Shown here: positions 207 to 52,800 of the stretch, piece after piece
How the letters are laid out: each line of letters starts with the position of its first letter
Position numbering within the stretch: the first letter of the stretch is position 1
Assembly: GCA_905178155.1 (NCBI GenBank)
Contig: CAJINV010000012.1
Location: forward strand, 677,271 to 741,270
Direction: 5' to 3'
DNA from: Amoebophrya sp. A120
Lineage: Eukaryota > Protista > Dinoflagellata
DNA: 64,000 bases
Notes under the pieces: generated by a model
The model's database searches: none
What the model was told of the DNA's origin: nothing
Seen by the model: the letters and a program-made list of their open reading frames with translations, nothing else
Translations under genes and position numbers: made by a program

Positions 207-3039
207 TTAGCAAGATCTTGGTACTACGTACAAGCATGTATCGCTTCTCTTCCCATACAGCTGCGCTACCGCCCCGCCAGCAATGTACTCTTGTTGCTGT
301 TGATTCACGGTTGCACCACCCGCTAATTTGCTTTTCTCTTCGAGCGATGAAATGTACTCTTCGGCCCCGTCTTTCCCAACCTTCGAACTGCTCGTGGTTA
401 TCACCATACGGAGCAGGCAAACCGTATGCATTGCAAAAGTAAATCGTACTCGTGTAAATGCATTACAAATTTCCTCAGCGTAAAATTTGTAATGCGGATT
501 TACCTTAAGAGCAAGGTTTGTAATGTATGTTTGCGATTACTACGAGTACGATACTTTTGCACAGGATAAACGGCATTCACGGTCGACACGAGGACGAGAA
601 CCACGGTCGAAAAGTCGGATCAAATGCAAATGTGTATGGGTCTGGAAACTTGTGATGCTAGTTCGTGAATGGTAGGCAACCTCCGTTAAGGGGCCACGCA
701 TGACAAGTTTCTGTGCAGCTACTTCTTGCATAACCTGCATGAGAAGCTGCGTTTTTGCATGACACAAAAGAGATGTTGGTATAGCACATCACGCATCACA
801 GCTTTTGCTCTCCTGTGTGCCAAGCATGACAAATCTCGCAATCGCAATCTTCCAGACCCAGACATATTTGCATTTGATAAGTCGAAAAGTAAGTCCAATT
901 TGTCGAGTCTGGGCTGGTGTTGAACAAAACTTCCGCTATTCTGCTGCTGATGCTGATGTCCTCTGTTCCTGTTCCCCCCACCGCCACCGATCCGGTCGTG
1001 CGTCGCGCTCTGCCAGTTGATCCGACCACCGTTATTTTGATGATTTCCACCGCCTGGCGTCGGAGCCGGGTGTTGATGATTTGCGCTGCGCAGCCCCATG
1101 AACACCCGGAGGGACTCGCCGTTGTGGTGAAACACCGCGTTCAAAGCCGTGAAGAAAACGAAAAAGGTTTGGAAGAAAAGGAAAAAAACCGTCACCCAGA
1201 GGCCGACCTGGTTCAGGGTGCGAGAAGTGTAGACCAGCGGGGAGGGGTCGATCACGGTCTTTAGATCTGATGTGTGTTTTTTTTTTTTACGTGAGTAACT
1301 GAACTGTTCTTACACGGACGAAGATGTTGTGCCGCAGCATCCGATGATCTTTGAAGGAGGAGGATATCATGCTCATCAACATCATTTTCATCGTACATAA
1401 AAATATACTACCTGAAACTGACTGCAACACTGGGCCCTTGATATTCTGTCCGCCACCGCCCCCCTTCAAATTTGCGGCACGGCTCGTCATCTCGGTTCCA
1501 TTTCCGTTGGCCACCAAGCCGCCCAGCTGCTCCGCGAGCGTCTTCCCAAAATTCGGCATGGCGACCCGCAAGATACAGGTAAAAACACACCAGAGGAGGA
1601 GCAAGACACACCCGACGACGAGAAAAACCGTCGTGAGAGTTTCCCGTGCAGAGTGGGCGTCCAACACGCCGGATACAGCGCTGTTGTTCATCCCATGTTG
1701 ATGACTTCCGCTTGAAGGTGTTCCCCCTCCATAATTTACCGGCCAATTCTTGCTCACATACAAAACCGCCACGTTTCCGATCAGCAAACCCAGACAGACT
1801 ATCAAAGCGTAATTCAAGTGGTGCGCGCTATGGATGTGTCAGGTTTGAAATCGACAAAGTTGAAATAATTTGTCATGCATAAAATGGATACCAGTTGGGA
1901 GACCAATTTCCAAGCGGCGCATGACAAATTTTCCGAGCACCGAAGTCCAATTTGTCATGCTGTTTGGGCACAGAAGACTGCTTTTGTCATGCTCCTTTAG
2001 CAGCTCTATCCCAAACCCTAAATAGGCGCACAATCTGCCTCACTTGCCAGCCCGGCAAGACAGGCTCTTTATGCCTTGCATTTTATGCATGGCAAATCAT
2101 TTCAACTTTGACGATTTCGATCCTGACAGATCCATACGCACGGGTGGAAAATTCGTCGTGGCGGCGAAACAGATATCCTGTGCAAAAGTATCGCATTCGT
2201 ATAAATGCAAGTCTTCGTTCGTTCGTTGTGGATCGGCTCTGCCGACCGGGTAACCCAACGCCTTGCATACAAGTGACCGACTTAGGCGAACCCCGTTGCG
2301 GGACATACAAATTGGCCGTACGGAAGGGCCCTAAGCGCTACATACATAGTTCACCCTAAGCGCCTACCACTTCGGTCTGGGACCTCGTCTACCTGATCCT
2401 GGGGGTCCACAGCGCACTAGCCCTCTGCTAGCATGAACAGACTGGGTTCTACAAACTGATCTAACTCCCTCTCTTCAACAGTAAGGCCATCATAAATGTG
2501 CGCTAAAACGGGTTCGGGGCGCTCCGTACGGAAGGGAGCCTTTCGACGCGGCGTACACTCTCCTGTAGAGATTTACGCATTACAAATTTTTTTCTTAAAG
2601 TAAATCAGCATGACAAATTTTATTTCTCATGCTGAAAAAAATTTGTAATGCATTTATACGAGTACGATACTTTTGCAGCTCATAACAGAGCGTCGACTTT
2701 TCGCAGCTGCTGCTGCTCGTGCAGTTGGGAGATGGTAGGAGGAACTCCTCCTGGTGAATTATTGTTGCCGTTGTTTTTATTCGTCCCGTTCTGTTGGTTC
2801 AGAAGTTGCTGGGGACCTTGCAGCTGTTGCGGCAGCACCTCTGGATTGTAAGCGGGAATGATGTAGGGCTGTGCGTTGTAAAAAGACTGGGAATTGTAGG
2901 AGGAATATGGGTAGTTGCTGTACGCGTTCTGCTGGTAGTTGTTACCCATGGTACAACCCCCACCAGCCAAGGGCTGGGCCTGTTGTTGAACTGTTGAGGA
3001 AAAGGGGGCGGCCATCGTGGCTGGGGATTGATAATCCAC
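207..3039 (-). CDS. Multi-exon hypothetical multi-pass membrane protein (Q/N-rich N-terminus)
   Basis: ORFs 2680-3039, 1287-1817, 719-1255 and 207-431 belong together. Removing introners plus one TSD joins the 5' exons in frame (...KVDALFRRHDEFSTRAHHLNYALIVCLG...). Several hydrophobic segments. A short canonical intron near 1267-1315 is inferred. Confidence 0.6.
425..568. mobile_element. Introner family A
   Basis: TIR TAT-N7-AAAAGTATCGTACTCGTA type; flanks aaccg/aacgg. Confidence 0.85.
618..879. mobile_element. Introner family B
   Basis: TIR (T/G)ATCAAATGCAAA..GGGTCTGGAA; TSD agtcg. Confidence 0.9.
1829..2136. mobile_element. Introner family C
   Basis: TIR TATGG..TGTCAGG..GAAATCGACAAAGTTGAAAT; flanks cgcgc/cgcac. 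Confidence 0.9.
2174..2684. mobile_element. Introner family A carrying a ~360-bp internal insertion
   Basis: Both family A TIRs present; TSD acaga; 511 bp versus ~150 bp for other copies. Confidence 0.85.
2216..2576 (-). mobile_element. Unclassified insertion, possibly a SINE/LINE 3' fragment
   Basis: Interrupts the family A consensus between gcaagtctt and gcattacaaat; (CGTT)3 at one end; internal repeats ccgtacggaaggg x2 and ccctaagcgc x2. Confidence 0.5.
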
Positions 3040-29243: not shown

Positions 29244-30247
29244 GTTGCGCTCCTCTGCGGATTTTTGACTGTTTCGGATCATAATTTCTACAAGATTGGG
29301 GTCGGCCGATTGGCCGACCCTATCTTGATGGACAGTTTGTAGGCATAAGAAGCAGCGTAGGTTAGTAGTATCGAAGCCGAGGGTCCAAAGTAGTTGTCTA
29401 CAGTGCAAGAGAAGTGTGCTAGTGTTGAAAAAGCAGGATGTTCGTAAAGCAGCAAGACAGATAGTGGCGAGCGTGTTCCGATCTAAAAGGCAGCGCAAGA
29501 GAACGATGAGAATTTGACGCTGATTCACATGCGGAAAAATGATTGATGAAGTTCATCACCAGGCGCAAAAATAACTATTGGCGTGCACACAGATGTAGAA
29601 ATAGATGCTGAGTTTTGATTTTTGTTTTTTGTAGTTGTTTTAAGGTCCGCACCAGAAGACGTCTTGCTGTATTTTTGTAGTCTCCTGCTACGCTTATAGG
29701 ACACTTCGACGTCAGCAACGAATTCAAAAAAAAAAGTTCTAGTAGCGAATCTTTAGAAACGAATCTTCAGTGTTGGAGGTCAGAAGCGAACTTTCAGAAA
29801 AACAAAAAAAAACATGCCTTCGCAGTCCTCTGAGAAATTGCGACTGCCGTCGCCTATGCGGCCGGTCCGCCTGCCCCTGCCGCCGGCAGCCGGCGCGGGC
29901 GAAGACAAAGACTACCAGGACTGGTTCTGGGAAGACTACCCTATGCGCTGCAAATGTAATTTTCGGGTCTGGAAGGTTGGAAGCTGTTTTTGTCATGTCG
30001 TTTGTGAATAGCAACAGTTTCTACATAAATCTGTCATGCGGAGTAGATGTCTGCCATGCAGAGTAGGCATCAGTTAGTAGTAGTAGCATGCGTTTTTCGC
30101 AGTTAGCTCAGCAGCGGCGCCGCCTGCTTCCGTTACAAACAGCGCGAACAACAAAAGCGGCCCCGCCCGCATCTCGCCGGCTGTTGAGCGCCCATTGAGC
30201 CGCCGCTGTTGCGCTCCTCTGCGGATTTTTGACTGTTTCGGATCATA
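29244..30247. repeat. 40-bp perfect direct repeat pair
   Basis: gttgcgctcctctgcggatttttgactgtttcggatcata at 29244-29283 and 30208-30247. Confidence 0.85.
29942..30070. mobile_element. Truncated introner family B (one end only)
   Basis: TATGCGCTGCAAATG...GGGTCTGGAAGG; no partner TIR found. Confidence 0.6.
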
Positions 30248-31096
30248 TTTTCTGTACAGGGACATACAATCAACAAATCTGCTTCGTCGTGTCTTCAACG
30301 TGGGTCGTCGTCTTCTTGGTTTACAATACTACAATAGATATCTGCCATCATCGGGCTACTGATTTCATCTTCAAAACGATCTCTCATCGCAAGAAGGAAG
30401 CCAGGCTCTACTGGTTCGGGTCGTTTACGTTTTGCCTGAGAGACCACGTGTAGGCAACCGTCACCACGAGGTCCAACTTCTTCTTGTTCTTTCCGACGCA
30501 GGATCAGAAAGAAGATTTGGTTTTAGTTTCAACATTCTGCGGCCCGGTGGAAGATTATAACAGCAGGATCATCCTGTTAATAAACTACAAGTTCGTATTA
30601 AATATTGGTATTCAAGGTGTGTGGAGAGATAAATGAATTCTTCTGGTTTTCTATATTCTTTGTCTCGATACAATGAAAAAACTTGCAAATCAATCTCATC
30701 TACGATCTGACAGCGGGCGTGGTGGCCTGTCGTACAGTTGTGAATCTACCGCAACAATAATCCAAATTCTCAGTCTTTGTTTTTTTTCCTATCAGTGACA
30801 GAGTGGTTGTTACATCGAAAATTGAATGTGAAATTGTAATTGATGAAAGCATTTTACGGTAGAATTAATTTGTCTGGTAAATGGAAATAAACTGCTAGTA
30901 CTGTAGTATCGAATCTGTTTTAGAGGTACTCGTCTAAAAAAATGAAAGAGAGCACGCTCGTGCTCGTTTGCAAATTCAAATTCTTTACTTGGTGTGCTAA
31001 CTCTTTTTCTTTTAATCTCGATTTTTTTTTTCTCTCGACGATGTGACCGAGGAAGTGCTTCCTATCTTCTCGGTATAATAAAACTAGCAGCTTGTT

Positions 31097-34000: not shown

Positions 34001-37000
34001 TTTTGTGCTGCTCCTTGTTTCTTGGCAAGATGAGCGCAAAGGGTCGCACCACAACTATGATAGATCACACAGCAGCAGGTGGCACGACATCGAGACTTCT
34101 TTGAGATCATGAAACAAGACTTCAACTTCTGAAGTCCACTTATTATATCAAGCAACACGATGCTGGAAATGGAAATCATGCGCAATAAAACAACTACTAC
34201 AAACATCATCAATAGTATTCCGCGAAGTTTTACAGTTCTACAACTGGTGCTGTTCCGTACCTTTCGACTTCTGCATCCAGTCCGAGATCGAGAAGACCAA
34301 ATCCTTATCCTGTGCAAAAGTATCGTACTCGTACTAAAACTAAATTGCTTTTACGCATTACAAATCTTTTTCTTCAGGGAAATCCGCATCACAAATTCCA
34401 TTCCATTTGTAAATCATGTAATGCTGAGCTAAAAATTCGTATTGTAATTTATGCAAGTACGATGCTTTTGCATTTCATAATCCTGATCTGTCCCTGCGGC
34501 AGGGACGGCAATATCCTGCGCAAAAACTACGTCACCCCCACCCCCTGGATTTCACGAAAAGTTGCGCGTTGAGGATGTGGTCTCTCATGCGGCGCAGAGG
34601 ACCGATGCAACATGAGGAGAGTCTAGTCTTTCATTTTTAGCTTGTTGTTCCAGATTTCTTGTAGTCATGCGCCGTTCATCCAAATTCCAGATTTCTTGTA
34701 GTCATGCAAATCAAAATGCTGTGCGATGAACTTCATCGCGCAGCATTTTGATTTGTGAAAGAAAATTATTCTTTTTATCTTGACTTTGGGGTCGTGTTTT
34801 TACGCAGGATAGGTAAATGTTTTGTGGGCCGCATCGTGGTGGGACATCAGGTATCCTGTGCAAGAAAGGTGTATCGCACTGCTCGGAGTAATGAAAAATT
34901 GCTATATTGTATGAAAAACCTGGCTCGTTAGCTGGTTCAGCATGACAAGAACAACTTTCAACTTTCACTTGTTACGCACATGCAGCACGCTGAGGAAGTT
35001 TGCATATGCAATAATTCCAACTACTTCTAGCACGATACACCTTTTGCAATGCGTACCAGGTGGCTGATCAGTTCCGGGGCGCCTATGTTGTCCTGCTTGC
35101 TCCCTTCCAGGGCAACACGGAACAAAAACCCCACGTTTGAGAGTTGGCTCCCGGGCACATTGCCTTTGTATCCGTCCGCTATCGTGCTCATGGACCGGAT
35201 GAACTCTGCCTTCTGCGCGGGGTTACTCAGCTCTTCGTGCACGATCTGCCACAGACCCCCTTTCCCGTTGTCTTCGTCCACACCGTTCACGGCCGCCCCA
35301 GCGAGGGCTTCGAAGTCCACACTCTGGAGGCTGCTCTGCACCGCTTGCACTGCGCCCGCCGCGTCTGTGTTCGTCTCCGCCGCGAGTCTGGTGGCTTCCA
35401 GTATGACCTGCTCAAGCGTTACAATCTTCTCAAGCGCTACAATAGAGTCTGGGATTTGTCTTGCATAATGAGCATGGCAGACTCGCAGACCATTCCACTT
35501 TCTGCAAGACAAATTTCGGCAGATTGTAGTGCGGTTTGGGACTGCTCCGGAACTTGTCATGTGCAGTCCTATGAAACTTGGCTAGATCATGCACTTCTTG
35601 CATCACAGATTTCCAAATTCTATTGGAACGTTTAAGATTGGGACGCTTGAGCAGGTCATATCCAGGGCGATGGGAATTTGGACCGCGGCCTCCGACTTCA
35701 GCAAATTATCGCCACCCGTGGCGAAGGCGCTGTTTACCGTCTTCAGGCCGGCTAGATACTGACTCGCTTTGCTCCAGTCGTCTTTGTCCGCCCGTATCCT
35801 GAGCAAAAGCGTCCCCACCCCATAGTCCAGTTGGTCTATATGCAGCACAAATCTCCACGGTTTGGGAGTTGTGCATGACAAGTTCCCATCTGCAGTGTCG
35901 TACTGGTTAGCAAGGGCAGCCACATGAGAAAGCCAGCTTGTAATCCTGCTTACACATTTACAAACTTCAAAACACGATTGGTAACGACCACGCCTGGCAG
36001 GGACATGCGCATTACAAATCTTCCTGCCATCGCAAATCTGCATGACAACTCTGGGGTGGGGACGTTTTTACACAGGATAGCCCGCAAACCCGACTTCATA
36101 TTTTCAAACAGCTCCTTGACTTCCGTTTTTGCGCCTTCCGTCCCCTTGTCGTCGTCAACGGCGGCCTGCATCGTAAGAAAACCCTGTTTCACTGTGAACT
36201 TGTGATGCAGAGAACGGAACACAAATGCGGTTGTCTTGCTACACATGCAAGACATTGGACTTTTTTTAGCTGTGTTTTCTCTTAGAGAGCACGCATGCCA
36301 AGTTTTTTTTGTCATGTGTAACAAACTTGTGACGCGATTCTTGCAAAATCATTACACTGAAGCAGTTTTTTCGTGGGATAGCCTGCGCCGCCACTGCAAT
36401 CGCGAGCGAGAGCTTTTCATGGGTTAGCTCCTTTGCTTTGGCGTCCCAGTGCACGTTCTTGCCGTTTTCGTCCTGGGACCGGAAGAGTTCGTGTATGTCC
36501 TGGTCTTTGTCGAGCTCGTCCGCGGCTACGATCATGGCGGCTTTGAACTCACTTTTTGCGCTGTCGTCTTCTTTTATTTCGTCGGGAATGCTATCGCTGT
36601 CACGAAATAGATCGGCCCAAATATCGTCGGCCCACGACTCTTTGTCAGCGTCGTCCCAAGTTGCGCTATCCGATGCGCCAGGGTATCCACAGAAAAAGTT
36701 CAACTAGACCCCTCCGCGTATGTTGTAATTTGTCAACATGCAAAGCATGCACATTAGTATAACAGGCTCAGATGTCGAATTCAACGGATTTTGAAAAAAT
36801 TTTTTTCGCTTGCTAAAGCGCCTAAATAGTTAAACTTTAAATAGCTACTTATGCATTCTGCGCATCCGCAAAGGCCCTACCGAAACCTGAGCTAACTAGT
36901 TTAAAACTACATCATCTCAAAAAATAACTAGTTCTTGTTGAAGGCGCTTTCGCTAGCTAAAAAAATGTTTTTCAAAATTGATTGAATTCGACATCTGAGC

Positions 37001-40000
37001 CTGTTATACAGATCAGAGCAACCTTATTGCTCTGAATATTATTCATAGTGTCTCCTGTCATCATGCAGAACACGGAAAATCGGGATCATAGGTCGTCCTT
37101 TTTTGTCCATAGGTGGTCAGGAAGCGCGTCCAGAGCGTCTGAATGGATGCCGTGTGCCTCCTCCAACACTTTCCCGACACTGTCGCTCAGCCAATCCTCA
37201 CCTCCAAAGTCCCAGTTTATGTCCAGGAACGGCACGTCGATGCTCTGTTGCTTGTTCATCGCCCCTTCCTGTTCTCCCACTCCGGTGGACTGCGACGTTT
37301 TCTTCTTGGCCGCTAGGTTTGTTCTTCTCTGTTGCTCCAGCTTCAGGATTTGGTTTTTGCGGTATTTCTTCCTCTTCTCTATCCGCCGAAGACGAATTTG
37401 TTCTCGTATCGTGTGCAGTTGCTGCAGCTTGTGGAGTTGCTGCTGCTGCTGCAGCTCCTGCGACATCCGGTACGTCCTCTGCGCGACCTGGTTCTCTTCC
37501 TTGTGTAGTCTCTGTAGTTGCTCGCCTTCTCTCATCATCTCTTCATCCAATTCAAGAAAATTGTTTTTTTGCGGAGATGGCACTACACTTCCACTTTTCC
37601 GCGCCGGCGCGCCGATTCTTGTAGCATGCTGGGAGACGAGAGGCTGAGGCTCATCGTCAAGCTTGTGACGTTCTTCGTGTTCGTGTGCTACTGCAGCAGT
37701 TGCAGTTGGTTCTTGAGCATCTACTTCTGCGATGAAGGATGCTGGCAACACTGGTTCTTCCTGCGTATTTCCTGTTCTTGTATGTCGTTGCGCAGCTGCA
37801 GTTGGCTGCTCATCTACTTCCAAAGTCGTGGAGGCGAGCAGGTTTGGTGTAGTTGCTTCGTCCCATAATTCTTCCACCGCTGCCACCCCGCCGTCGTTCG
37901 ACACGGCGACTGCCTGCTCTGGTGGTTTTTGACTGGCTCCGGTAGTTATTTTTGGCCCGAAGATCCCAGAGGAGTGGTCCTGCTGCTCGAGCAGCTCGAG
38001 CCCGCGCGAAGGAGAACGGCCAGCGCCTCTTAGGGCATGATGTGCATGCGTGGGGGCAGCCGCAGCACCCCCGCCCGCAGACGCGACTAGTTCTAACGCA
38101 GAAGAGGATGAAGGAGAAGGAAGTCCCTCTTGTTGTTGTACTGCATGACTAGGCTGTGCAGTTATAATCTTATGCTGATCTTCTTCTGCAGGAGAATCTC
38201 CTGGTCCTGGAAACTGGGCGTCCTTTTCGTTTTCTCCCGGTCCCCCTGCTCCTCCTGCTGCGTGAGTAGAGGACATCAAACCTGCTTCGCCCAGAGGTGG
38301 ACCGTTGGCGCTGCTCGCCGTGCTTGTGCTGCTACTAATTTTGGTGCCCCCAGGGTGGTCGTAGTGGTTGTCATCTACGGAGATCATTTCCTCCTCGCCA
38401 CCCACAGCAACTTTCCGTGCGGCAACTAGAAAAGTAGCCATGTTGTTGTGCAGTTTCTGTGAAGATGAGTCATCATCTCGTCCGCGTGGTGAAGTAGACG
38501 GTGAAGAGGTCCTGGGAAAGCTACGCAGTTGTGTTGACAAGAGCAGCAAAACCGCCGTAAAGAACATCAGACACGTTGTCGTTGTAAGGAGCGGCACATA
38601 ATAAAAGCAAGGCGGAGGTTTGTTTTTACTTTTCGCGGCCACAGTCGTGGAAGAACTCCAACAAGAAGTTGTTCGCCATGTGGTGGATGAAGAGAATTTT
38701 TTGTTCAAAATCTTCATCGCGGCGGAAATCTTTTTCCTAGTCTTCCTTCTCGTGCACAATGAAGGAGACCATTTGATGTTCAATGGGCCGCGATCATGTC
38801 GAACAACGGGAACTAGAAGCTGCTGTTGTTCTTCTTGCAACTCTCCTCCTCGCGGAAGTGGTAGTGGACTGCTGCCACGACTCATGTCAGTCTGTGAGAC
38901 CTCCCTTTGGAAGACGAGTTGTGTACTGTAGGAAGTAGATGTAGTTGACAGCGGCCAAAGCCTTGCTCTTCCATCGGACGTCGTCGTCGAAGAGGACGCC
39001 TTACCACTTCGTTGCTCGTCGCGTCCTGTGTAGTCTGACTCTGCTAGTAGGCGGCGGCCATTGAAGGTAGTGCTACAACTCCGGATCATGTCGGGGGCAG
39101 ATTGGTTGCTGCGGTCGTCGTCCACAGGCAGCTCTCTTGCGCAAGTAGATGTTGTTTGTTTCCTAATCCTTTCCTCGTCCGCCTGCTTGACTACTACTGC
39201 GCGGTGTCGTGGTTGCAGCTTGGACGCCGACGTGCAATTACCTCGCCAGAACTGCTGCTGCTGCCGTTGCTTCCGGGATCTCTCGTCGAGATCATCCCTC
39301 CCGCGGCCCGTGGTTCTCTTGATAGTTGCCCTCTCGCAGTTGCAGCAATGGTCCTGCTGCTGCTGCTGAGAAGTGGCACGAGCGGAGCTTGAGTTTCTCC
39401 TCCTGGTGCAGAACGGGAAATGAAATCGCGACAGCAACAGTCCTCGTCCGATCAAGGTAGGCGCGGCAGCGTCGTCTCTGTTCTTATCCTCTGCCGACAG
39501 CGACGAGAACAGCTTCTGCCGCCTGAGTTTATGTTTGCAGTTCTGTCGCCAGCCGGAGGGTGAAAACCAAAACCTACACCAGCTGGAACAAGTTGTCACA
39601 ACGACCGATGTTGAACAGGCTAGCATATTACACGGAGCAACAGAAGAAGAAGGAGTTCTCTGCCCGCGCGCATCATCATGATTTCGCCCGTCGAACGAGG
39701 AGGAAAACATCTGCGATGAAATGCTGCATGTTCTTGAGGAACTACTTGTGCTGCTGCTGCTGCCCCCTCCTGAAGGTAGTTGCTCTGTTACTTTTTGCAC
39801 TCGGAGAATTTCTATCTCTGGTAGCATCTGTGATGTCGCCGATGTGGAGGTGTTCGTAGTTCCTGCTACCGGGGGCCGTGAACAAGCAGATGCAGTCGGT
39901 CCCAAACTGCTGCTCGGTGTGCTGTGCAGATCAGCGCTAGAAGAAGTAGCAGCACTTGCTGGACGAGGACTTCTACTCCGAAGACTTGAATTTTGCTGCT

Positions 40001-41207
40001 CCTGCACCTCCTTGACAGGAACTCGAACTTCGCCGTCTGATACTACCATCGTTTTTATGTTCGAAACCTCATTCATTACTACCTCGCTTTTATTCAAACA
40101 AGCGCAAGCCCTGGATGAAGATGAAGATGAAGATGAAGATGCGAGAGAGCGGACGGCGCTAGTGCCCGCAGGTAATGTCGTTGCACTGTTACTAGTTTCC
40201 TTTGGCCTTGTCCAGCCGGAACAAGTTTCTGGAGTGTTTTTCATCCTTGCGCATGGTCTTCTACTTCTCGTTGCACCATCAGCTGACGCAGTCGATGTTG
40301 AGATAGAAGCTGCTCGTCTAGTTGTACCACCGGAGTTCTTCAACATATTGCAACCTCTGGTCGCGCACCTGGAACTGTTCAACTGTCCACACGGATTAAG
40401 TGCGTTTGGACTTCGGTTTCTAGTTTCAATCAGGCTTACGCAGTTCATCCCCTGTTGCTCCTGCGCCACTGGTGGTCCTTCTACCTGCTGGTGCAGCTGT
40501 TCCAGTGTCGCATCTGACTTTGGTCTTTGCGAAACAGGCCGCACAGATGGTCGTGTTCTTGTTCCACCTTGCCGCTCCTGCTCCGTGTGTGACGAGGACG
40601 AAAAACAAGACGAAGAGGACGCAGTTGCAAAGCGTGTTGATGTTATTAATCCACCGTCTTCAACACGTTGTATAAACCGCGTAGAAGAAGAGGAGGTCAA
40701 GGAACTAGCACAACTAAAGCTTGAAGCTGATCCAGCGGCCCCTCGACTAGGAACATCATCTTCACGACTTGACAAGGAAGACTCCTCGATGCGCCCTCCC
40801 CTGCTTTGCCGGCTTTCAGGAGCATCAAAGATCATCCTACTTGAAATAGACCTAGACGCTGGAACTACGACCGGATTGGTAGAAGAAGTGCTAACGTCGG
40901 CACGCGGGAAAAAAGCCGTGGGCGATGAGCTGCTCGCCGTTCTACTGCAGGAACGCGACGTAGCAGCAGGGTTGTTTTCACCTCCTCGAGAACCGGCTGG
41001 GGTAAGAAGATTGTCGTTTTTGTTCATGATCTCTTGGCCAACGTCGAGCTGCATTGAACTATCTTGCGCCCGGCCAAGCCCCTGCTGGCATGGCGCAACC
41101 GAAGATGACACCATTTTTACACGGTCGTGAAGTTCTAGTGCAGCGGTCATCTTCCACCTGTTCATCTCCTCGTTCTTTCTGTCATCATCAACATCTCCCA
41201 CCTCCAT
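31097..41207 (-). CDS. Very large multi-exon hypothetical protein (possibly two genes); S/T-rich 1373-aa first exon, K-rich C-terminus
   Basis: Exons such as PGASDSATWDD, AAVDDDKG, LEATRLAAE and KIKDNVKKAV separated by more than 12 introners; internal hydrophobic segment; not every junction verified. Confidence 0.5.
31922..32312. mobile_element. Degenerate introner family A containing a nested H element
   Basis: TATGCACTGCAAAAG ... tagtatcgaatac-atttg[H]atttg-caattcata. Confidence 0.75.
32090..32298. mobile_element. Introner family H nested in the TIR of a family A element
   Basis: TIRs; TSD atttg. Confidence 0.9.
32343..32663. mobile_element. Introner family F
   Basis: TIRs; TSD tctcg. 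Confidence 0.9.
32722..32904. mobile_element. Degenerate introner family G
   Basis: TATCAGGGTGCACAACT.CCCCTCCCC and an imperfect partner; frame restored by removing element plus 5 nt. Confidence 0.7.
32964..33107. mobile_element. Highly degenerate introner
   Basis: Imperfect IR tcaaagccaaaaagtgttaatctaaacgg / ccgttaggattcacacttt..tttga; gcatgacag core; ends approximate. Confidence 0.5.
33193..33434. mobile_element. Introner family I
   Basis: Long TIR TATGGCGTTCTCAA..GTTACATTCTCAACTGTTACATGAATTTGT; TSD gttgc. Confidence 0.9.
33523..33699. mobile_element. Short degenerate introner family B
   Basis: GTCTGGGTCTGGA / TCCAGACCTAGAC; flanks cgcca/cgccg. Confidence 0.8.
33766..33919. mobile_element. 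Introner family M
   Basis: TIR TAT..AAATT.CCG.ACATGTACAA; TSD agcgt. Confidence 0.85.
34306..34479. mobile_element. Introner family A
   Basis: TIRs; TSD atcct. Confidence 0.9.
34512..34811. mobile_element. Introner family D-like
   Basis: TATCCTGCG(C/T)AAAAAC..CCCCA; flanks ggcaa/ggtaa. Confidence 0.8.
34852..35055. mobile_element. Degenerate introner family A
   Basis: TIR remnants; flanks tcagg/ccagg. Confidence 0.75.
35402..35660. mobile_element. Introner family E
   Basis: TIRs; TSD tccag. Confidence 0.9.
35795..36079. mobile_element. Introner family D2
   Basis: TIRs; TSD gcccg. Confidence 0.9.
36169..36380. mobile_element. Introner family H (CAT end variant)
   Basis: TIRs; TSD gcctg. 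Confidence 0.85.
36684..37090. mobile_element. Degenerate composite introner
   Basis: TAT...ATA ends between two exons that join in frame; TIR and TSD decayed; contains a MITE. Confidence 0.55.
36758..37008. mobile_element. AT-rich MITE with a 27-bp perfect TIR
   Basis: TATAACAGGCTCAGATGTCGAATTCAA ... TTGAATTCGACATCTGAGCCTGTTATA; no 5-bp TSD, possible TA TSD. Confidence 0.85.
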
Positions 41208-41790
41208 TATCAGAACCGGACCAAGACGCTGGATCGACTGCTGCCCACAAGAGCAGAGCCCAGCGACCTCATTCTGTGGTCATGATTTGTTGGAAGAAAA
41301 GCATCGCTGTGCTCAAAAGAGCTCAACACAGTAGGTATTTTCATTAGTCTACGTCGCCTAAACGTGAATACGTTTTGGAGAGAGCAGTCCTCAAAATCAT
41401 TGCTCACTCATCTTGCCCTTTCCAAACAATATTCCGATGATGTCACAATGCCATCCTGCTCCTGCATGCACTCACGACAATCTCTCTTTAAAGCTTCCAC
41501 TCATGTTCCCCGAGGGCCCCACGATGAAAATTGACACGTGATATGATTCATCACAGACGAGCGAGAACGAGCGAGATTGTAGTACTCTTATTCGAATTTT
41601 TGCGCATGTCCTGTGATCGAACCTCAAACGTTGGCCGTTTTTGCGCTATTCGTGCATCGTCGTGTTTGATGTAGAGAGTCTGATTCTTAATCGATGGTCC
41701 GGCGACCCCTACTGTGTGTCAACATTGCGACGCTTTATTCACATTTTTCGCTTGATGGCACTTGCTTCACATGTACATGTTCGTACTGAG

Positions 41791-44001: not shown

Positions 44002-46214
44002 TCAATCCGCCTCTACCGTGGTGGGCTCGAGCGTGATTCTCTCCCGCAGAAAGTAGTCCAGGTAAATATAACCATCTCAGGTGTTACAATCTCAAACGTT
44101 ACAATAGAGTCTGGGATTCGTCTGGCATCATGAGCATTACAGACTCGTAGACCGTTACACTTTCTGCAATACAAATTTCGCCAGTTTGTAGTGTGGTTTG
44201 GGACTCCGGAACTTGTCATGCGCAGTCCTATGAGAGTTGGCTAGATCATGATCATGCATTTCTTGCATCACATATTTCCAGACTCTATTGTAACGTTCGA
44301 GATTGTAACGCTTGAGCAGGTCATAGTAAAGGCACACGGCGCGAAACTCCCGCGGCGCCCAGAAGTGCGTACCGTTCGGCACCAGAACCGCGACGGCGTG
44401 TTGCCCTTCGGCCCGCGTGCAACGGTTCTCCTCTGCTGAGGGGCTCTCCAGCGCGGCGACGGGGTCACCGCCGGGGAACAATTGCTGCAATTGCTGCTTG
44501 AAGGCCGACACAGAACAGTAGCCGTCGTATGAACTGCAAAAGTATCGTACTCGTATAAATGCATGACAAATTTTCTCAGCACGAGAAATAAAATTTGTCA
44601 TGCTGATTTACCTTACGAAAAATATTTGTGATGCAAGACCTGCATTTATACGAGTACGATACTTTTGCACAGGATACGTCGTTCGTCCCGTTGATGTACA
44701 GCTGGGGTCGCTTATTGGGCGACGGCGACTGATATCAAGAGCACAAGTGTCTGGGTCTGGAAGAGTGCCAGGTTTGTCATGCATATTTTGCATAACCCAT
44801 GACGCCTGTGATGCATGACCTAGCATCTTCAGAGATTTCTAAAGGGCCTTCTGATGCGTATTCCGCATGAGAAACGCCCACTCCGCGCAGCACAAACTGA
44901 ACTCCTCTTGCTGGTCATGCAATACAGATTTTTTATTTTGCCTTCCAAAGACAGCATCACAAGTTGCAACCTTCCAGACCCAGACATTTTTGCATTTGAT
45001 AACTGAATCAGGCCGCCGAGAAACAGGTTCCCCAAAAAGCCAAAGGGTGGAGATAACGCGACAATGCTATCAAAAGGAAAAATCCCCCCTCCCCATATCA
45101 AAACGGAAATCTGTGATGCAGATTTGTTGTCACAAATCAGCTTTGTCATGCTACACGGGACAAGATGCGCACTGTAGTACTGGGTGGCGTGGGGAAGCCT
45201 TGCATCTTCAGCATGATAGGAGGCAGCTAAGAGTGGAAAACAGCATGACAAATTGCCTGCAAACGAGGCCACGACTGCGGCTCTTGGCCTTCTAGCATGA
45301 CAAGTCGATTTGTGACCTCAAATACAGCATCACAAATTTCGTTTTCGATATGGGGAGGGGGGATTTTTCCTTTTGATAAATGCCCGCGACGCGCTCGTCC
45401 GTCGCAAACCGGTTCCCAACCGCAATGGCCGCGTTGGCACCGGCGGAGTACCCCACCACGAGGACCCGACGGCACTTCGGCAGGTGTTTCGCACAGTCGC
45501 CCCGGGTGAGCGCCTCCACAGCTTTACAGGCGTCCTCGGTTTCGCCGTACCCCCGAAGGCTGGGGTGCGCCGTGTCGTACCGCACGGCCGGAAGTCGGTG
45601 CTGCGACGCCAGATAGTGCTGCAACCAGGTCACCACGTAGTTATTCTTGTCTCCGCCCAGGTAGTACATCGGGAGCTATGCATTGCAAAAGTATTATAAT
45701 CGCGGCCATCGTAGCAATTGCAAATATGCATTACAAGTCTCCTTCTCAAGGCGAACCGGCATTAGAAATTCCATTTCTCATGCTGGGAATCAAATTTGGC
45801 ATGCATTTTCCATAATACGTTGTTGTACTTTTGTATTGCATAGGTGCAGTACCAGTGCAACCAGCGTGCCCTCTCCGGTTTCCCCATGCTCGTCCGCAGG
45901 CCGAAGTAAGTCGCATTGCATATCCTGTGCAAAAGTATCGCACTCGTACCAATTGCAGCCATGCGTTACAACTCTCCTTTTTATTTAGGCAAATCCGCAT
46001 TACAAATTCCATTTCTAATGCTCAGAAAATCTGTAATGCGATTTCTACTAGTACGATGCTTTTGCATTTCATAGTGCAGCAGGTCCGCCAAAACAAACTG
46101 AGAACTTTGGGTCTTCTGTGCGGGTCCCAGCGCGCCGGTGCTCGTCTCGGATCCCGCTCGAGTCTGACGGCTACCGGAAGCCGCTGCTGTGGTCGCGCGC
46201 GACGGCGATGACAT
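44002..46214 (-). CDS. Alpha/beta-fold hydrolase, six introners
   Basis: Spliced motifs H-x-P..LGGDKNNYVV, VVGYSAG (GxSxG), IVALSPP, LYINGTND (Asp), NGTHFW (His); ends ...EPTTVEAD*. Confidence 0.85.
44067..44325. mobile_element. Introner family E
   Basis: TIRs; TSD gtaaa. Confidence 0.9.
44528..44676. mobile_element. Introner family A
   Basis: TIRs; TSD cgtcg; close to 52292-52440 in sequence. Confidence 0.95.
44733..45001. mobile_element. Introner family B
   Basis: TIRs; TSD actga. Confidence 0.9.
45068..45378. mobile_element. Introner family F
   Basis: ~30-bp TIR TATCAAAAGGAAAAATCCCCCCTCCCCATATC; TSD aatgc. Confidence 0.95.
45677..45842. mobile_element. Degenerate introner family A
   Basis: TIR remnants; flanks ggagc/ggtgc. 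Confidence 0.8.
45921..46073. mobile_element. Introner family A (empty site present at 48933-48937)
   Basis: TIRs; flanks ttgca/gtgca. Confidence 0.95.
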
Positions 46215-46473
46215 TCTTCTTCAACAACTCGTATTTGTCTCAGGGTCAGACGGATGGATCGTCGATGTAAAAAGGCTGGTAAGGCACGATATGGGTTCAA
46301 ACCATATGTTGACACAGAAGTTTACGTAGTAAAATAGCGATTTGTTAAGCCAGAAAGAATCATGACTTGGAAAATCCCCCCCCTTTGCGTCGGAAACTCC
46401 CCTCGTTGGGGAACGAGAGCCCAAATGCTACAACTTCGAGCGTTTTAAACATACTGAAGCCAAAACATCGGGC

Positions 46474-46519
46474 GACGTTGCGAACCACAAAAATCGGACG
46501 TTGCGAACCACAAAAATCG
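46474..46519. repeat. 23-bp tandem duplication
   Basis: gacgttgcgaaccacaaaaatcg x2. Confidence 0.9.
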
Positions 46520-46939
46520 GGCGTGGCTTACGAACGACATCACAGGCACCTTGCAGGCAGTGTCGCAGGGCGTTCCTATCGGCGATGTGGCGCGGGCAAT
46601 AGCGCGCTGCAATTAGAAGGCTCGCAAAAAATTTTTCGCGCCATGCAGCAAACGCTACTAGCGACAGAGCAACACGCTTACGGAACGTCCTGCAATTTGA
46701 ATCGGTAGCCCTCGCCCTATTTCTGCCATGTGTGCTGTAAAAGGTCAGCGCTTGCGGTTTTTTTTTGTTCATGTAGTCATAACTCACTGAATTGCCACTC
46801 TACGAAAATCCCACTTCTAGAATGATTCCGGGATGAGATAGCTTTTCTCTGGGGTGGTAATTCAGCGAGCCCTTGCTCCGGAAGAACCAGAAGCCTAGTA
46901 ATTCACTTTTCGAAATAGCGGAGTGAGATTGTTCCAGGA

Positions 46940-48020
46940 GTGAATATTCACTGAATTTTCACTCGGTTTCTCGTTCCGGAACGAGAAATCGAGTGAAAAT
47001 TCAGTGAATTTTCACTTTTGGAAAAATCCTGCTTCCCGAATTCGCGCTCCGGGAAAACTTCGCCTCCGGAGTGAAAATTTTCAAAAAGTGAAAATTCACT
47101 GAATTTTCACTCGATTTCTCGTTCCGGAACGAGGCCTCGTTCCGGAACGAGGCCTCGTTCTGGAACGAGGAATCGAGTGAAAATTCACTGAATTTTCACT
47201 TTTTGAAAATTTTCACTCTGGGAGCTCAAGTCTCTCTCCCGGAAAATTCGTGATCCAAAAGTGATTTTTTTCAAAAAGAAAAAGTGAAAATTCACTGAAT
47301 TTTCACTCGGCTTCTCGTTCCGGAACGAGAAATCGAGTGAAAATTCAGTGAGTATTCACTTTCGGAAAATTTTAACTCCGGGAGCCGAAGCCTCTCTCCA
47401 GAAACATGCATGCTCCAAAAGTTATTTTTTTCAAAAAGTGAATACTCACTGAATTTTCACTCGGCTTCTCGTTCCGGAACGAGAAACCGAGTGAAAATTC
47501 AGTGAATATTCACTTTCGGAAAATTTTCACTCCGGGAGCCGAAGCCTCTCTCCAGAAACATGCATGCTCCAAAAGTGATTTTTTTCAAGAAGTGAATACT
47601 CACTGAATTTTTACTCGGCTTCTCGTTCCGGAACGAGAAATCGAGTGAAAATTCAGTGAATATTCACTTTTTGAAAAGTCCCACTTTGGGATCCCGAATT
47701 TTCCGGGATTGAGAATTCACTAAATTCTACTCACTCCATTTCTCGTTCCGAAACGAAAACCAAGTGAGAACTCATTGAGTTCTCACTTTTTGAAAAGTCC
47801 TGGAGTGAGAATTCAGAAAATTCTCACTCCATTTCTCGCTCCGGAACGAGAAGCCGCGCAAGAATTCACTGCGTTCTCACTTTTTAAAAAGTCCTGGAGT
47901 GGCAATTCAGTGAGTTCTCACTTCGTTTCTCGTTCCGGAACGAGAGCCCACACGAAAACTCGCTGCGTTCTCACTTTTTGAAAAAATCCGGGCATTACGC
48001 GCCTCGTTCCCGAACGAGGG
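46940..48020. repeat. Array of nested palindromes centred on CTCGTTCCGGAACGAG
   Basis: About 11 cores; arms GTGAAAATTCACTGAATTTTCAC; 154-bp period at 47316/47470/47624. Confidence 0.95.
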
Positions 48021-48333
48021 GAGTTTCCGATGTCATTTTGTGGTAGAGGTTCCAAGTCATGGAAGGAAAGAATATCATCACCGGACATGATTGCTTTTTC
48101 CTTTTTTCTGCAAGAACGGCAGGCCTGAATATCAAATCTCGTTCATGCCCTTTGTTATTTCATCAACTCTCGGTCTCTACAACACTCAATGTCCGTCGTC
48201 CACGGAGCACAGGTAGCTGATCATCTAGATTCTTCCGGAACACACACAACTCGTCTGTGCCCATCCTCAAAACATCGGCTCTGTTTTAGTTCTACTTGGT
48301 GATTTCATCTTTTACCCGCCTGGACGGCGATTG

Positions 48334-48892
48334 GATTTTTCACCTGGCGGAAAAGAAAAGCAAAAGAAAGCTGTACTGAGATGCTATATCGGGGCCTCAG
48401 TTCCGGCATTCAAAATTCAACCAGTGTTGAGATTTGCTTCTGTTCAACACTAAATTTTCTCGTCATCATGAAGAATCTGAATCACAAAGTAAAGTTGTAA
48501 AAGAGAACCAAAATAAGCTCGGTAGCTGAAAAAGGAGGCAAAATAAAGTTGAGTCGTGATCCAGAAGTTTAGGCACTAGTTTTCGTATCGCTTCGGGTGC
48601 AGAAGCTTTAGCTCAGAACAATTGATCATTCCTTCTCCAGGAAGTTCTTATACTCGTATTGACATGCAGATGCAACTCATTTCTCTCGTCGTACTCGTAG
48701 TCAGCAGCAGTTCGCTGTCTAATCTTTGTAGACCACGCGAAGAGCTTGTCACTGTCTTTTTGAACTTTTGTCGTTGAAAAAGATAAAGCGTAAATTTCCC
48801 AAATAAAACTACGCCACTTCAACTCACCACCGGCATCGCGTAGCTGCAGGTCGTTTCTGCAACGGCTCTCGGTAAAACAATCGCTTTTTCGT
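48334..48892 (-). repeat. Diverged duplicate of 49324-49903 (last codons and 3' region of the upstream gene)
   Basis: Collinear with many indels; the coding part is nearly identical. Confidence 0.9.
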
Positions 48893-49073
48893 AGAGATTT
48901 ACGCGGAACACGGATGGGCCGCGGAAGTCGCATTGCAGCAGGTCCGCCAAAACAAACTTAGAACTTTGGGTCTTCTGTGCGGGTCCCAGCGCACCGGTGC
49001 TCGTCTCGGATCCCGCTCGACTCTGACGGCTACCGGAAGCCGCTGCTGTGGTCGCGCGCGACGGCGATGACAT
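48819..49073 (-). pseudogene. Chimeric 84-aa ORF: hydrolase N-terminus fused to the adhesin-gene C-terminus
   Basis: MSSPSRATT..LADLLQCD + filler + EKAIVLPRAVAETTCSYAMPVVS*. Confidence 0.7.
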
Positions 49074-49321
49074 TCTTCTTCAACAACTCGTATTTGTCTC
49101 AGGGTCAGACGGATGGATCGTCGATGTAAAAAGGCTGGTAAGGCACGATATGGGTTCAAACCATATGTTGACACAGAAGTTTACGTAGTAAAATAGCGAT
49201 TTGTTAAGCCAGAAAGAGTCATGACTTGGAAAATCCCCCCCCTTTGCGTCGGAAACTCCCCTCGTTGGGGAACGAGAGCCCAAATGCTACAACTTCGAGC
49301 GTTTTAAACATACTGAAGCCA
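48925..49321 (-). repeat. ~99% duplicate of 45908-46462 lacking the introner
   Basis: Four substitutions seen by eye; single ttgca at the junction. Confidence 0.95.
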
Positions 49322-49829
49322 TAGATTTTTCACCTGGCGGAGAAGAAAAGCAAAAGGAAGCTGATGTAGGTGTTCCATCGCAGCCTCAGTTCTGGCATAT
49401 GTTGAGAATTCAAGCAGTGGAATTTGCTCCGCCTGCTGCTGCTCCTCCACACTACTGGTCATCAATTGAAGTAGACGGAGATACTATAAAGAAAATCACA
49501 AAGTAAAGTTGTAGTAAATTGTGAAGAGAACCAAAATAAGCTCGGCAGCTGAAAAAGGAAGCAAAAAATGAGAATGACTGAGTTCAGGCACTAGTTTTCT
49601 TATCGTGTCGGGTGAAGAGGCTTTAGCTCAGCACAATTAATCATTCCTCCTCCGTGAAGTTATCTACTCGTATTGGCATGCATCAACTCACTTGCTTCGT
49701 CGTAGTCAGCACTTCGCTGTCTAATCTTTGTAGACGCGAAGAGCTTGTCTTTTCGAACTTTTAATATTGTTGAAAAAGCAAAAGGTAAAAGGAAAAGCCC
49801 ATACTAAACTTCCCAAAAACTACGCCACT

Positions 49830-52800
49830 TCAACTCACCACCGGCATCGCGTAGTTGCAGGTCGTTTCTGCAACTGCTCTCGGTAAAACAATCGCTTTTT
49901 CGTGGCAAAGCGGAATCAGAGCGCTTTCCTTCACCATTTCCGTCGGCGACCCGAGAGTGGCGCTGCTGGAGTTGTTCGGCACGACCGGTCGCTGCGTTTC
50001 CACCATGAGCCACTCGACGCGGCTAGCTACTTGCTCCTCGCCCTTCATATCACCCAGGTCGCCGTCAAAACTGTCTTTCCTTTCGCCTCCGGCGGCGGTA
50101 AACGAGGCAGAGGAGCTACTCCCAGAGGAAGAGACCATCCCGATGGATTGCTTACTCGCACTGCGGCTCCGGCTTGTGTAGTTATTCATCGCTGCACCAG
50201 TAGTACTCGCGTCTAGGCTCTCGGAACTGGAATTGGCACCGCTGCTGTTATTCCCCTTCTCTGCAACAGGCTGGGGAAAGTAGGACAGCAAAGTGTGTTC
50301 CGACCGGAGCAGGCGCGGTTTTGAGGTCGCGGTGAAAGCGATAGAAGAACTACTCTTCTGTTTCTCAACTGCCGTCTTCTTCGCCATACTGGTCGTTACT
50401 GTTGCGACTTGCCACTTCGAAAACGCTTTGAAAGCGTGTGCTTGGTCGTCTTGGGCGGTTCCGGTTGAGGCGTTAAAAATGTTGCTGTTACTATTTGACG
50501 TAGTCCTTTCAACATCATCCGCAAGGGCGTAAACTACCTCAGTGTTCTTCTCAAAGTACCTCCTTATCCTCGTTGCGTCCACCCGGAAGGGTTTCGGCTG
50601 CATCTTCTTCGGTGGTAACTTCACGATGTACCCCCGGAATCCCGGCAGCGCTTTCTCCACAACGCAGGGTCCGATCCAGGAGAGGGATTTGTTGCTAGAC
50701 AAAGTTGTATCGGAAGATGCTGAAAATTGCGTCGGAGCAGGTTGTTCTTTGGAAGAAGGTACTATCTCTGTCGTGCTTTCCTCCAGCGTTTTGTTGTGGT
50801 CCTGGACGTTTTTACCACTTTCCTCCATTTCCACGCAAACTATGAAAGCCTCAGGTTGGAAATCCTCAAAGTGAAAATAATTTGTAATGCAAAAAAACGA
50901 CTCCAGTTGAAGCACCATTTCTAGTCGGCGCATGACAAATTTCCCGGGCACTCAAAGCGTGTTTGTCATGCTAGTTAGGCAAAGCGGTGCCCCACCCTCG
51001 TGCTAATCAGCAGCCCAATTCTGAACCTGTAGAAGCACAATAGTCGGCCTCCATTGCGTTCTCTCCAATACAGTCTTTTTGGTGTCGCATTTCATGCATC
51101 ACAAATTATTTTTACTTTGAGCATTTCCATTCTGAGGGTGTCATACAAACTTGACACAGCTCCCCGACCCGCAATGGGATCCGCAGTTTTGTTATCGGGC
51201 AGGACCTCTTGACCTGCTTCCCCTGAATCAAAACATCGACAACGCCCGCAGTTTGGATGCTTTGGGAAACAGTTGTTGCAGTTGTACTGGTTGCAGCACT
51301 ACTACTCGTTGTTGCCAAAATGGACGCGGGGACGTATGTGCCGAACCTCTGCGACCAATACTCGACCTTCTCGCCCGCGGAATAGCACGCCGGTGGGCGG
51401 TTCGTCGGATTCTGTTCAGAGGAAACGGCTGTGGAAATCTCGCTAGTCTTGTCGATTGGCTTAGAAGTGCTGGTTACGCTTTTCCTTTCTGCAAGATCTA
51501 CGGCTTTGACCGGCGAAGTAGTTGTGTCGTCCACCTTCACTTCAAACGTCGCTGCTTTTACCACCTCCTGCTGATCGTAATCCCAGATAATTTTCCGTTT
51601 CCCGGTTTTCTCGTCCATCATGATTTTCCAATGCGTGTTTAACTTCGTGTGTTTTTCCAGTTCCAGAGTCAAATTCTGCTTCCCCTTCTTCGGCTTCTTA
51701 CACCCGTAGTAGCAGTACACACTGGCGCAGAGCCAGAAGAGGGCGATAACCGCGAAAATAGAGGACTTCAAGATCATCGCTTGGTCAGCGCAGGAAAAGG
51801 AATCCTCGGAATGCAACGGGCAGTCGAGGAAGCTGCAATTATTGTAGTTTTTACAATTCTGCTCAATTTCCGGTTTTGTTGTTTGATCGCATTCATCCCC
51901 ATCGTTCGCATTGCCGCAGACAAGCAATCCAATTCGGGCCTGGATCCCCTTTCCGCACAGGTTGGAGCACGTGTCCCAGGCGCCAGGCTGGAGATCATGT
52001 TCTTGAGTGCTTTGTGATGCAGTAGTTCTTGCGCCGTCAGTAGTTGTAGATGAATCATCAACCACGAATCCCCATTCATTTTTCGTCACAATCGCGTTTG
52101 CAGTGAAGCGGATAGTTTCTGTGTTCAGGGAGAAACTCTGTAGGAAGTCGGCTTGTTGTGCTGATGTTGTGACAGTGGCAAGTTCCCGTCTGACCGACGC
52201 AGGAACAACTACTTGCGACGAGGACTCTGCCGGCCCCAGCCCTAACACGTCGGCTCGGTGTCGGTGCAACTCGTTAACAAATGCGGACCGGTATGAACTG
52301 CAAAAGTATCGTACTCGTATAAATGCATGACAAATTCCCTCAGCATGAGAAATCAAATTTGTAATGCGGATTTCCCTAGGGAAAAGAATTTGTAATGCAA
52401 GACTTGCATTTATACGAGTACGATACTTTTGCACAGGATAACCGGACACTCGGTGTTATCTCCGCGGAGGAGGAAAAGCTGGATGCTATTCCCCGAAAAT
52501 TAACCATCCCCATCCACTTTTTGCATGACAGACGCCGAATTTCCTACATGTTTTGCATGACAAATTGGATGGGGATGGGTGATTTTCAGGGAATAGATGC
52601 CATGGAGATCAAGTGATTCCTTACCGTCTGTGCCCGGGTGGATTTCAAATCCCCTCGAGTGCGAACCTCGAAAGAGACTTGGAAGGTCTTGGTTGATATG
52701 GATTGCAAAAGTGTCTGGGTCTGGAAGAGTGGAACTTGTAATGCTGTCTGCAGATTCTAGAAATGTCTGTGTTGCATGAGCAGCAAGAGGAGTCAGCTCT

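What the first reader, a model, noticed from the sequence alone, without database searches (positions are those of the whole stretch)
45908..49321. Exact empty site: a ~99% identical copy of the hydrolase 5' end lacks the introner precisely
Seen: the gene reads aagtcgcaTTGCA[introner 45921-46073]GTGCAgcaggtcc, whereas the copy at 48925-49321 reads aagtcgcaTTGCAgcaggtcc and translates LADLLQCD, the predicted spliced product. This directly supports the element + 5 bp boundary. Inference: the introner has a mismatched TSD and imperfect TIRs while the duplicate differs at about 4 of 400 sites, so precise loss (cDNA-mediated or scarless excision) fits better than insertion after duplication. The alternative is a very recent insertion of an already diverged element.
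Basis: partly seen in the sequence, partly recalled or inferred. Interest (0 to 1): 0.85.

Follow-up and report, generated by a model that had tools for sequence, protein, structure and literature searches.

The report
Introner-free gene copy in rearrangement patch
A 397-base, 99% identical copy of a hydrolase gene's start lacks a jumping-gene intron exactly, and it was likely copied from the neighbouring gene during a local rearrangement just before that intron arrived, though exact loss during copying is about as likely.

Summary
The empty site is real. The window is Amoebophrya sp. A120. The copy (48925-49321) differs from the hydrolase 5' end at 4 of 397 sites and lacks introner 45921-46073 plus 5 bp. 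RNA contigs show the gene's six introners spliced as element plus 5 bp, giving the same junction. The copy is not a lone retrocopy. It sits 3 kb from its source, between two old versions of the upstream gene's tail, joined through 33 bp of a multi-copy repeat. It includes 103 bp of a transposon end and has no poly(A) or flanking duplication. That points to a locally templated patch. Loss versus later gain is unresolved. The terminal-repeat argument for age fails: both ends recur exactly in other copies and the element has 1 private base. Only the one-base target-duplication mismatch argues for age (1.5-12% chance if younger than the copy). My odds: insertion after copying 0.45; skipped during DNA copying 0.25; local spliced RNA template 0.15; excision 0.05. 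No whole genome, second strain or DNA contig across the empty site was available.

The parts
45921..46073 (.). Introner, 153 bp, TAT-N7-AAA termini, intron 1 of the hydrolase gene H
   Evidence: spliced out in RNA contigs
45916..45920 (+). Target-duplication copy TTGCA; its distinguishing base is the one kept in mRNA and in the empty site
46074..46078 (+). Target-duplication copy GTGCA; the mismatched G is spliced out
   Evidence: DNA contigs X1 and X7 carry G
   Evidence: PF12697 30 bits over cutoff 26.3; A120 protein P0001
45908..46462 (-). Source segment of the copy: 13 bp at and beyond the site, introner, exon 1, 248 bp upstream of the ATG
48925..49321 (-). Copy H', 397 bp, 4 differences, empty site at 48933-48937; present in RNA contigs
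48891..48924 (-). Filler: 33 bp of a multi-copy repeat (48891-48923; 2-bp overlap with the X' tail) plus one G
   Evidence: loose ends of X1 and X6 contigs continue as in window 2549-2564
48331..48892 (-). X': last 88 bp region of the upstream gene X (2 differences from X) plus an old version of its 3' flank (14% substitutions, 25 gaps)
49322..49903 (-). 3' end and 3' flank of gene X, cut where the copy begins
46361..48061 (.). Low-copy foldback-like element with terminal inverted repeats and internal 154- and 94-bp tandem arrays; its outer ~100 bp are in the copy with 0 differences
   Evidence: raised DNA depth and loose ends at its end
48819..49073 (-). In-frame chimeric ORF, 84 aa: H exon 1 + filler + X tail; function not shown
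   Evidence: exact sequence not in the protein collection
2216..2580 (-). Another piece of the filler's repeat, nested in introner 2174-2684; (AACG)3 tail, no target duplication; LINE-like by anatomy only

Best explanation
The copy is likely a DNA patch templated from the neighbouring hydrolase gene during a local rearrangement, made shortly before the introner inserted, so its empty site would be a snapshot of the pre-insertion sequence. Shown: a 99% copy, an exact empty site, splicing of element plus 5 bp, and a junction of X' tail, 33 bp of repeat, H copy and X 3' flank. Inferred: an old tandem duplicate of gene X (or of its 3' part) lay here; a recent event removed most of it and joined the ends through two templated pieces; the introner then landed in H with a 5-bp target duplication, and the intronic copy of that duplication changed by one base. 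I put the local-template origin at about 0.8 and this order of events at 0.45.
For: Locality: the source is 3 kb away; a diffusible mRNA would come from the next gene by chance about once per gene number (inference). The copy holds 103 bp of a transposon end with 0 differences and 145 bp of upstream DNA with 1. No poly(A), spliced leader or flanking duplication. The 3' flanks of X and X' are old (61 of 433 sites differ) while the transposon end is not (0 of 103; Fisher p=1e-6). The introner looks young: both 24-bp ends recur exactly in other copies; 1 private base at conserved columns; 1 listed near-private site against 2-7 for four other introners of H (40 of 123 rows shown). At that site contigs with its own base sum to depth 153 against about 30 for single-copy DNA, which hints at close siblings. 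Farhat et al. report 97 identical element pairs in A120 (PMC7789003), so recent insertions exist. No rare deletion mechanism is needed.
Against: The target duplication has a mismatch; 39 of 50 surveyed elements have none. The chance of a mismatch is 1.5-12% if the insertion is no older than the copy's divergence (95% range 0.3-2.6%). The nearest relative in the window is only 87% identical, though the window samples about 50 of some 29,850 elements. 97 pairs among 29,850 means very recent copies are rare. Farhat et al. found no transposase in A120. The insertion must also fall within 13 bp of the copy's end.
Confidence: 0.45

Rival explanations
1. Exact loss during DNA copying: the introner was already in H; repair synthesis that had just switched onto H met the introner hairpin and slipped from one TGCA repeat to the other, so the copy lost element plus one duplication.
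For: The mismatch suggests age. Single-stranded DNA of the element folds at -23.5 and -26.2 kcal/mol (z -2.8 and -2.4; 1 and 3 of 200 shuffles as good), with its ends at the stem base. The junction already shows two template changes, one of them 13 bp from the site. Deletion between short direct repeats by slippage is established in yeast (PMC3874155, passage).
Against: No direct sign separates this from pre-insertion copying. The element shows little internal decay. The rate of such exact skips is unknown and must reach several percent per crossing to compete (my estimate).
Confidence: 0.25
2. RNA-templated patch: a reverse transcriptase primed at the broken X' end copied 33 nt of a LINE-like RNA, then switched to a freshly spliced H transcript still near its locus.
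For: The empty site equals the spliced product. H piece and repeat piece are in the same orientation, with the H piece 5', as in mammalian mRNA/LINE-1 chimeras (10.1101/2025.02.02.635956, passages). The repeat has a microsatellite tail and occurs in RNA contigs. The filler overlaps the point where the copy at 2216-2580 is truncated. A120 has non-LTR elements.
Against: The repeat's 3' tail and a target duplication are absent. The repeat was not shown to encode a reverse transcriptase (no hit). The copy reaches 248 bp upstream, into a transposon end. Capture of the adjacent gene's RNA needs a cis mechanism not shown in this lineage.
Confidence: 0.15
3. The copy first carried the introner; a transposase cut it out and the gap was closed on the target-duplication microhomology.
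For: Precise repair through target-duplication microhomology is shown for mPing (PMC4561436, abstract).
Against: The same abstract says non-matching duplications raise footprints. No transposase was found in A120. Only 8 bp of H lie beyond the site, and the time window is short.
Confidence: 0.05
4. The copy is a second allele: two haplotypes, one without the introner, were joined by an unequal crossover.
For: The layout reads as two units of X tail, spacer and H start; coding parts differ by about 2%.
Against: It needs 14% divergence in the X flank beside 0 of 103 differences in an unconstrained transposon end.
Confidence: 0.06
5. Assembly artefact, or a copy that carries the introner in DNA and only looks empty.
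For: No listed DNA contig covers 48849-48890 or crosses the empty site. The X1 contig at the right junction has 30 letters on one side, one short of the tool's bridging rule. X1 depth over the shared part is 38, against 27-36 for single-copy neighbours, less than two copies would suggest.
Against: Two RNA samples of one study hold the left junctions with 0 differences. X1 and X7 DNA contigs each mix bases of both copies. X7 depth there is 10.9 against 5-7. An assembler does not remove an intron exactly.
Confidence: 0.04

Closest known systems
Amoebophrya A120 introner elements (Farhat et al. 2021, PMC7789003)
   Same: Same strain; TAT-N7-AAA inverted repeats, short direct repeats over the exon borders, non-canonical splicing.
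   Different: The passages read compare intron positions between A25 and A120, not filled and empty paralogs; 'intron loss' occurs 0 times in the main text. Supplements were not read.
Empty-site paralogs used as evidence of recent transposition ('related to empty sites'; name recalled, from no call)
   Same: A near-identical duplicate without the element and with one target copy.
   Different: Here the element is a spliced intron, so the empty site also equals the mRNA, and the direction is ambiguous.
Templated insertions at rearrangement junctions (MMBIR/FoSTeS, polymerase-theta end joining; general knowledge, recalled)
   Same: Several short templates, one local, stitched at a junction; 2-bp overlap at one joint.
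   Different: Repair enzymes were not examined; microhomology at the other two joints is unclear.
Processed pseudogenes and mRNA/LINE-1 chimeras (10.1101/2025.02.02.635956); dinoflagellate retroposition (PMC11453091)
   Same: First exons joined without the intron, 5' of a LINE-like piece, same orientation.
   Different: No poly(A), no element tail, no target duplication, no spliced leader; source is adjacent; upstream transposon DNA is included.

Membership tests
A120 introner element | Repeated in the genome | tested here: met
   20 members aligned from the window; summed DNA depth 13,827 at 46031
A120 introner element | Terminal inverted repeats starting TAT, seven bases, then three or more A | tested here: met
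   (18 of 24 terminal bases pair); definition
A120 introner element | 3-5 nt direct repeat over the exon borders | tested here: met
   TTGCA/GTGCA, 4 of 5
A120 introner element | Removed from mRNA at non-canonical borders | tested here: met
   spliced contigs in X3 and X6; none of the five possible cut registers gives GT-AG (read)
Processed retrocopy | Intron absent at the exact splice junction | tested here: met
Processed retrocopy | mRNA 3' end with poly(A) and a flanking target duplication | tested here: not met
   the copy stops 8 bp past the duplication in exon 2 and runs into a repeat piece; flanks are unlike
Processed retrocopy | 5' end at or inside the transcript start (or a spliced leader) | tested here: inconclusive
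   no leader in the copy; contigs cannot show starts
mRNA/LINE chimera | Cellular exons 5' of a LINE piece in the same orientation | tested here: inconclusive
   order and orientation fit; the repeat's class is inferred from anatomy; no protein hit
mRNA/LINE chimera | LINE 3' tail and target duplication retained | tested here: not met
   only 33 internal bases are present
Templated-insertion junction | Pieces copied from separate loci, at least one nearby | tested here: met
   H 5' end 3 kb away plus a multi-copy repeat
Templated-insertion junction | Microhomology at the joints | tested here: inconclusive
   2 bp at X'|filler; one unexplained G at filler|copy; ancestral sequence unknown at copy|X flank
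Precise intron loss | Intron present in the ancestor of both copies (outgroup or age test) | not testable with these tools
   no genome held; metagenome scans empty; X9 gave 4 reads, none on H exons

The most novel reading that the evidence does not exclude
Hairpin introners are erased exactly, with no mRNA retrocopy and no transposase, when repair synthesis slips across their own target duplication (or copies the locus's nascent spliced RNA). This locus would then be a caught case of introner loss that also built a transcribed in-frame chimera from two neighbouring genes.
Probability: 0.4. Interest if true: 0.6.

Novelty: new member of a known kind. Interest (0 to 1): 0.35.

Why it matters
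Either direction says something about A120 introners. Gain after copying means the family moved within about 1% divergence in a genome where no transposase was reported, and gives a dated insertion with its target. Loss during copying would be a route by which introners disappear exactly, which bears on how intron bursts decay. One locus cannot settle it, but the test is cheap and scales: every recent partial duplicate in the A120 assembly is a filled/empty comparison. The boundary result only confirms what RNA-seq had already defined for this strain.

Tried and rejected
Whole-genome donor search: no genome held. Conspecific loci: exact 23-mer in metagenome contigs, 0 matches; P0001 in metagenome contigs, 57 pattern matches and none confirmed; filler 23-mer in viral contigs, 0. 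46359 as an assembly error: first suspected, rejected because X7 DNA reads A there. Filler as diverged exon 2 or a chance match: rejected, contigs show a multi-copy repeat. Class of that repeat: a 51-aa frame found no homolog; Rfam gave 4 matches, all far below gathering scores. Orthologs to polarise the mismatch: A25 has Arg and a JGI protein Lys where A120 has Gln; this mildly favours TTGCA as ancestral and fits gain and loss alike. Transcript start at 46462: no RNA contig of X3 or X6 continues past it along H, and X6 carries H bases in exon 1 but the copy's base at 46359; contigs cannot show starts, so this is not used. A full paralog of X elsewhere in the window: none. Earlier findings of the scan: nothing in 3 look-ups.
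Full report
Organism and element. An exon of the gene matches an Amoebophrya sp. A120 protein at 100% (P0001), with relatives in A25 (59%) and a JGI sample (49%). P0001 passes the Pfam Abhydrolase_6 cutoff. The element at 45921-46073 fits the A120 introner description in Farhat et al. (PMC7789003; abstract, outline, passages and part 3 of Results read; supplements not read, and their direct-repeat figures S19-S25 may bear on the mismatch argument).

Observation. Removing element plus 5 bp aligns 397 bases to 48925-49321 without gaps and with 4 differences. Of 50 elements tested, only this one has an exact empty junction in the window. In RNA runs X3 and X6 the gene's contigs skip the introners. 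The X3 contig is 965 nt, exactly the length of the exon chain with each of six elements removed with 5 bp, and it ends in exon 2 followed by the same bases as the empty site. The boundary claim stands.

Is the copy real? RNA contigs of X3 and X6 (two samples, one study) span 48814-48954 with no difference. An X3 contig runs 48925-49845 with all four copy alleles. In DNA, an X1 contig begins at 49292 and crosses the right junction, with 30 letters on the short side. The X1 contig over exon 1 has three H bases and one copy base; the X7 contig has two of each, at about twice neighbouring depth. Such mixing is expected when two near-identical copies are collapsed (inference). Against: no listed DNA contig crosses the empty site, and X1 depth there (38) is only slightly above single copy (27-36). 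The tool warns that holes and depths prove little. I put artefact at 0.04.

Along the minus strand the order is: gene X; its 3' flank (cut at 49322); the copy; 33 bp of a multi-copy repeat plus one G; the last 88 bp region of X again; an old version of the 3' flank; a 1.7-kb foldback-like element; then H. The two flanks differ at 61 of 433 sites with 25 gaps, the 88-bp tails at 2, and the copy at 0 of 103 (transposon end), 1 of 145 (upstream) and 3 of 136 (exon). Tail and copy are compatible in age (p=0.30); both are much closer than the flanks (p=0.001 and 1e-6). The simplest history is an old tandem duplicate of X, mostly deleted later and patched with pieces from H and from a repeat (inference). 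The repeat also occurs nested in introner 2174-2684, with an (AACG)3 tail and no target duplication; that is LINE-like anatomy, and no protein evidence was found. The joined pieces form an 84-aa open frame; being in frame has a chance of roughly one in five (my estimate), so I make nothing of it.

Template. The source is 3 kb away, the copy includes a transposon end, and it lacks poly(A), leader and flanking duplication. A retrocopy of mature mRNA in trans is therefore unlikely, although retroposition is common in dinoflagellates (PMC11453091, passages). A local DNA template, or the locus's own nascent RNA, remains.

Age of the introner. A scan found 59 candidates; I dropped 9 with two or fewer flank matches (internal or satellite pairings). 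Of 50, 39 have perfect 5-bp duplications, 9 one mismatch and 2 two (the scan favours good matches and missed some decayed copies). A mismatch thus marks a minority. If the insertion is no older than the copy, the chance of one is 1.5-12%. That is the only argument for age. The terminal repeats give none: each end recurs exactly in other copies, and asymmetry of this size is common with perfect duplications. Among 20 aligned members this one has 1 private base at conserved columns (range 0-12, median 2.5). Three of the five mismatched members there have only 1-2, so mismatch and internal decay are poorly linked. In one search it has the fewest listed near-private sites of five H introners, from a truncated table (40 of 123 rows). 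Its nearest window relative is 87% identical, which says little with about 50 of 29,850 elements sampled.

Weighing (inference, rough). Old elements outnumber young ones by perhaps 4-9 to 1, the mismatch adds about 5 to 1, and signs of youth take back 2-3 to 1: about 13 to 1 for old before the empty site is counted. An old element must then be dropped exactly. I guess 3-9% for slippage, cis-RNA templating and excision together. That leaves near-even odds, and later insertion is the single most likely history (0.45) against 0.25, 0.15 and 0.05 for the three loss routes. The hairpin is real in folding. Slippage between short repeats (PMC3874155, passages) and microhomology-guided precise repair (PMC4561436, abstract) have precedent, as do mRNA/LINE chimeras (10.1101/2025.02.02.635956, passages).

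Literature. Searches (listings only) showed no paper on filled and empty paralogs or introner loss in Amoebophrya. 'Excision' and 'empty' do not occur in Gozashti et al. 2025 (PMC12130899, passages), which attributes A120 introners to several transposon classes. Gozashti et al. 2022 (PMC9860276, passages) filter paralogs out. Roy et al. (10.1101/2020.10.14.339549, passages) reconstruct gain and loss across species. The library lacks most subscription papers.

Verdict. A genuine, transcribed empty-site duplicate of a known introner type. The boundary is confirmed; precise loss is possible but not shown. Interest 0.35.

Noticed in passing
window 44067-44325: The public protein P0001 (328 aa) reads into this introner, but RNA contigs of X3 and X6 splice it out; the RNA-supported protein is 291 aa and shares the first 272.
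   Followed up: yes
window 46361-48061: Foldback-like element between genes X and H, with terminal inverted repeats, palindromic 154- and 94-bp arrays, a few genomic copies, and GAAAGAAT on both flanks (offset by 4 bp on the right); a 93% relative appears in an RNA contig.
   Followed up: partly
window 2174-2684: An introner carries a nested 365-bp insert with an (AACG)3 tail and no target duplication; the same repeat supplied the 33-bp filler at 48891-48923.
   Followed up: partly
window 7101, 34306, 45921, 55102 and others: Introner ends look modular: the same few 24-bp end variants recur in different left/right combinations across copies, which hints at end swapping.
   Followed up: no
window 45672-45847 and 45916-46078: In both mismatched target duplications of H the odd base is in the spliced-out copy; if both use one register, the cut falls after base 3 or 4 of the duplication in transcript direction.
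   Followed up: partly
window 48819-49073: In-frame 84-aa chimera of H exon 1, repeat filler and X tail, covered by overlapping RNA contigs; own transcript versus long 3' flank of X not resolved.
   Followed up: partly
window 46465, 32976, 25404, 21216: An 8-base motif resembling the recalled dinoflagellate spliced-leader 3' part occurs 4 times on the minus strand and 0 times on plus; one straddles the source's end at 46462. May be chance.
   Followed up: no
window 29244-29289 and 30208-30253: 46-bp direct repeat, 98% identical, 964 bp apart; possibly another local templated copy.
   Followed up: no
window 14804-14998 / 36178-36370 and 31615-31840 / 33209-33423: Two further repeats outside the masked introners: 76% inverted and 68% direct.
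   Followed up: no
window 37086-41279: A 1397-codon stop-free, low-complexity frame on the minus strand with no introner found inside it, in a window averaging about 0.8 per kb.
   Followed up: no
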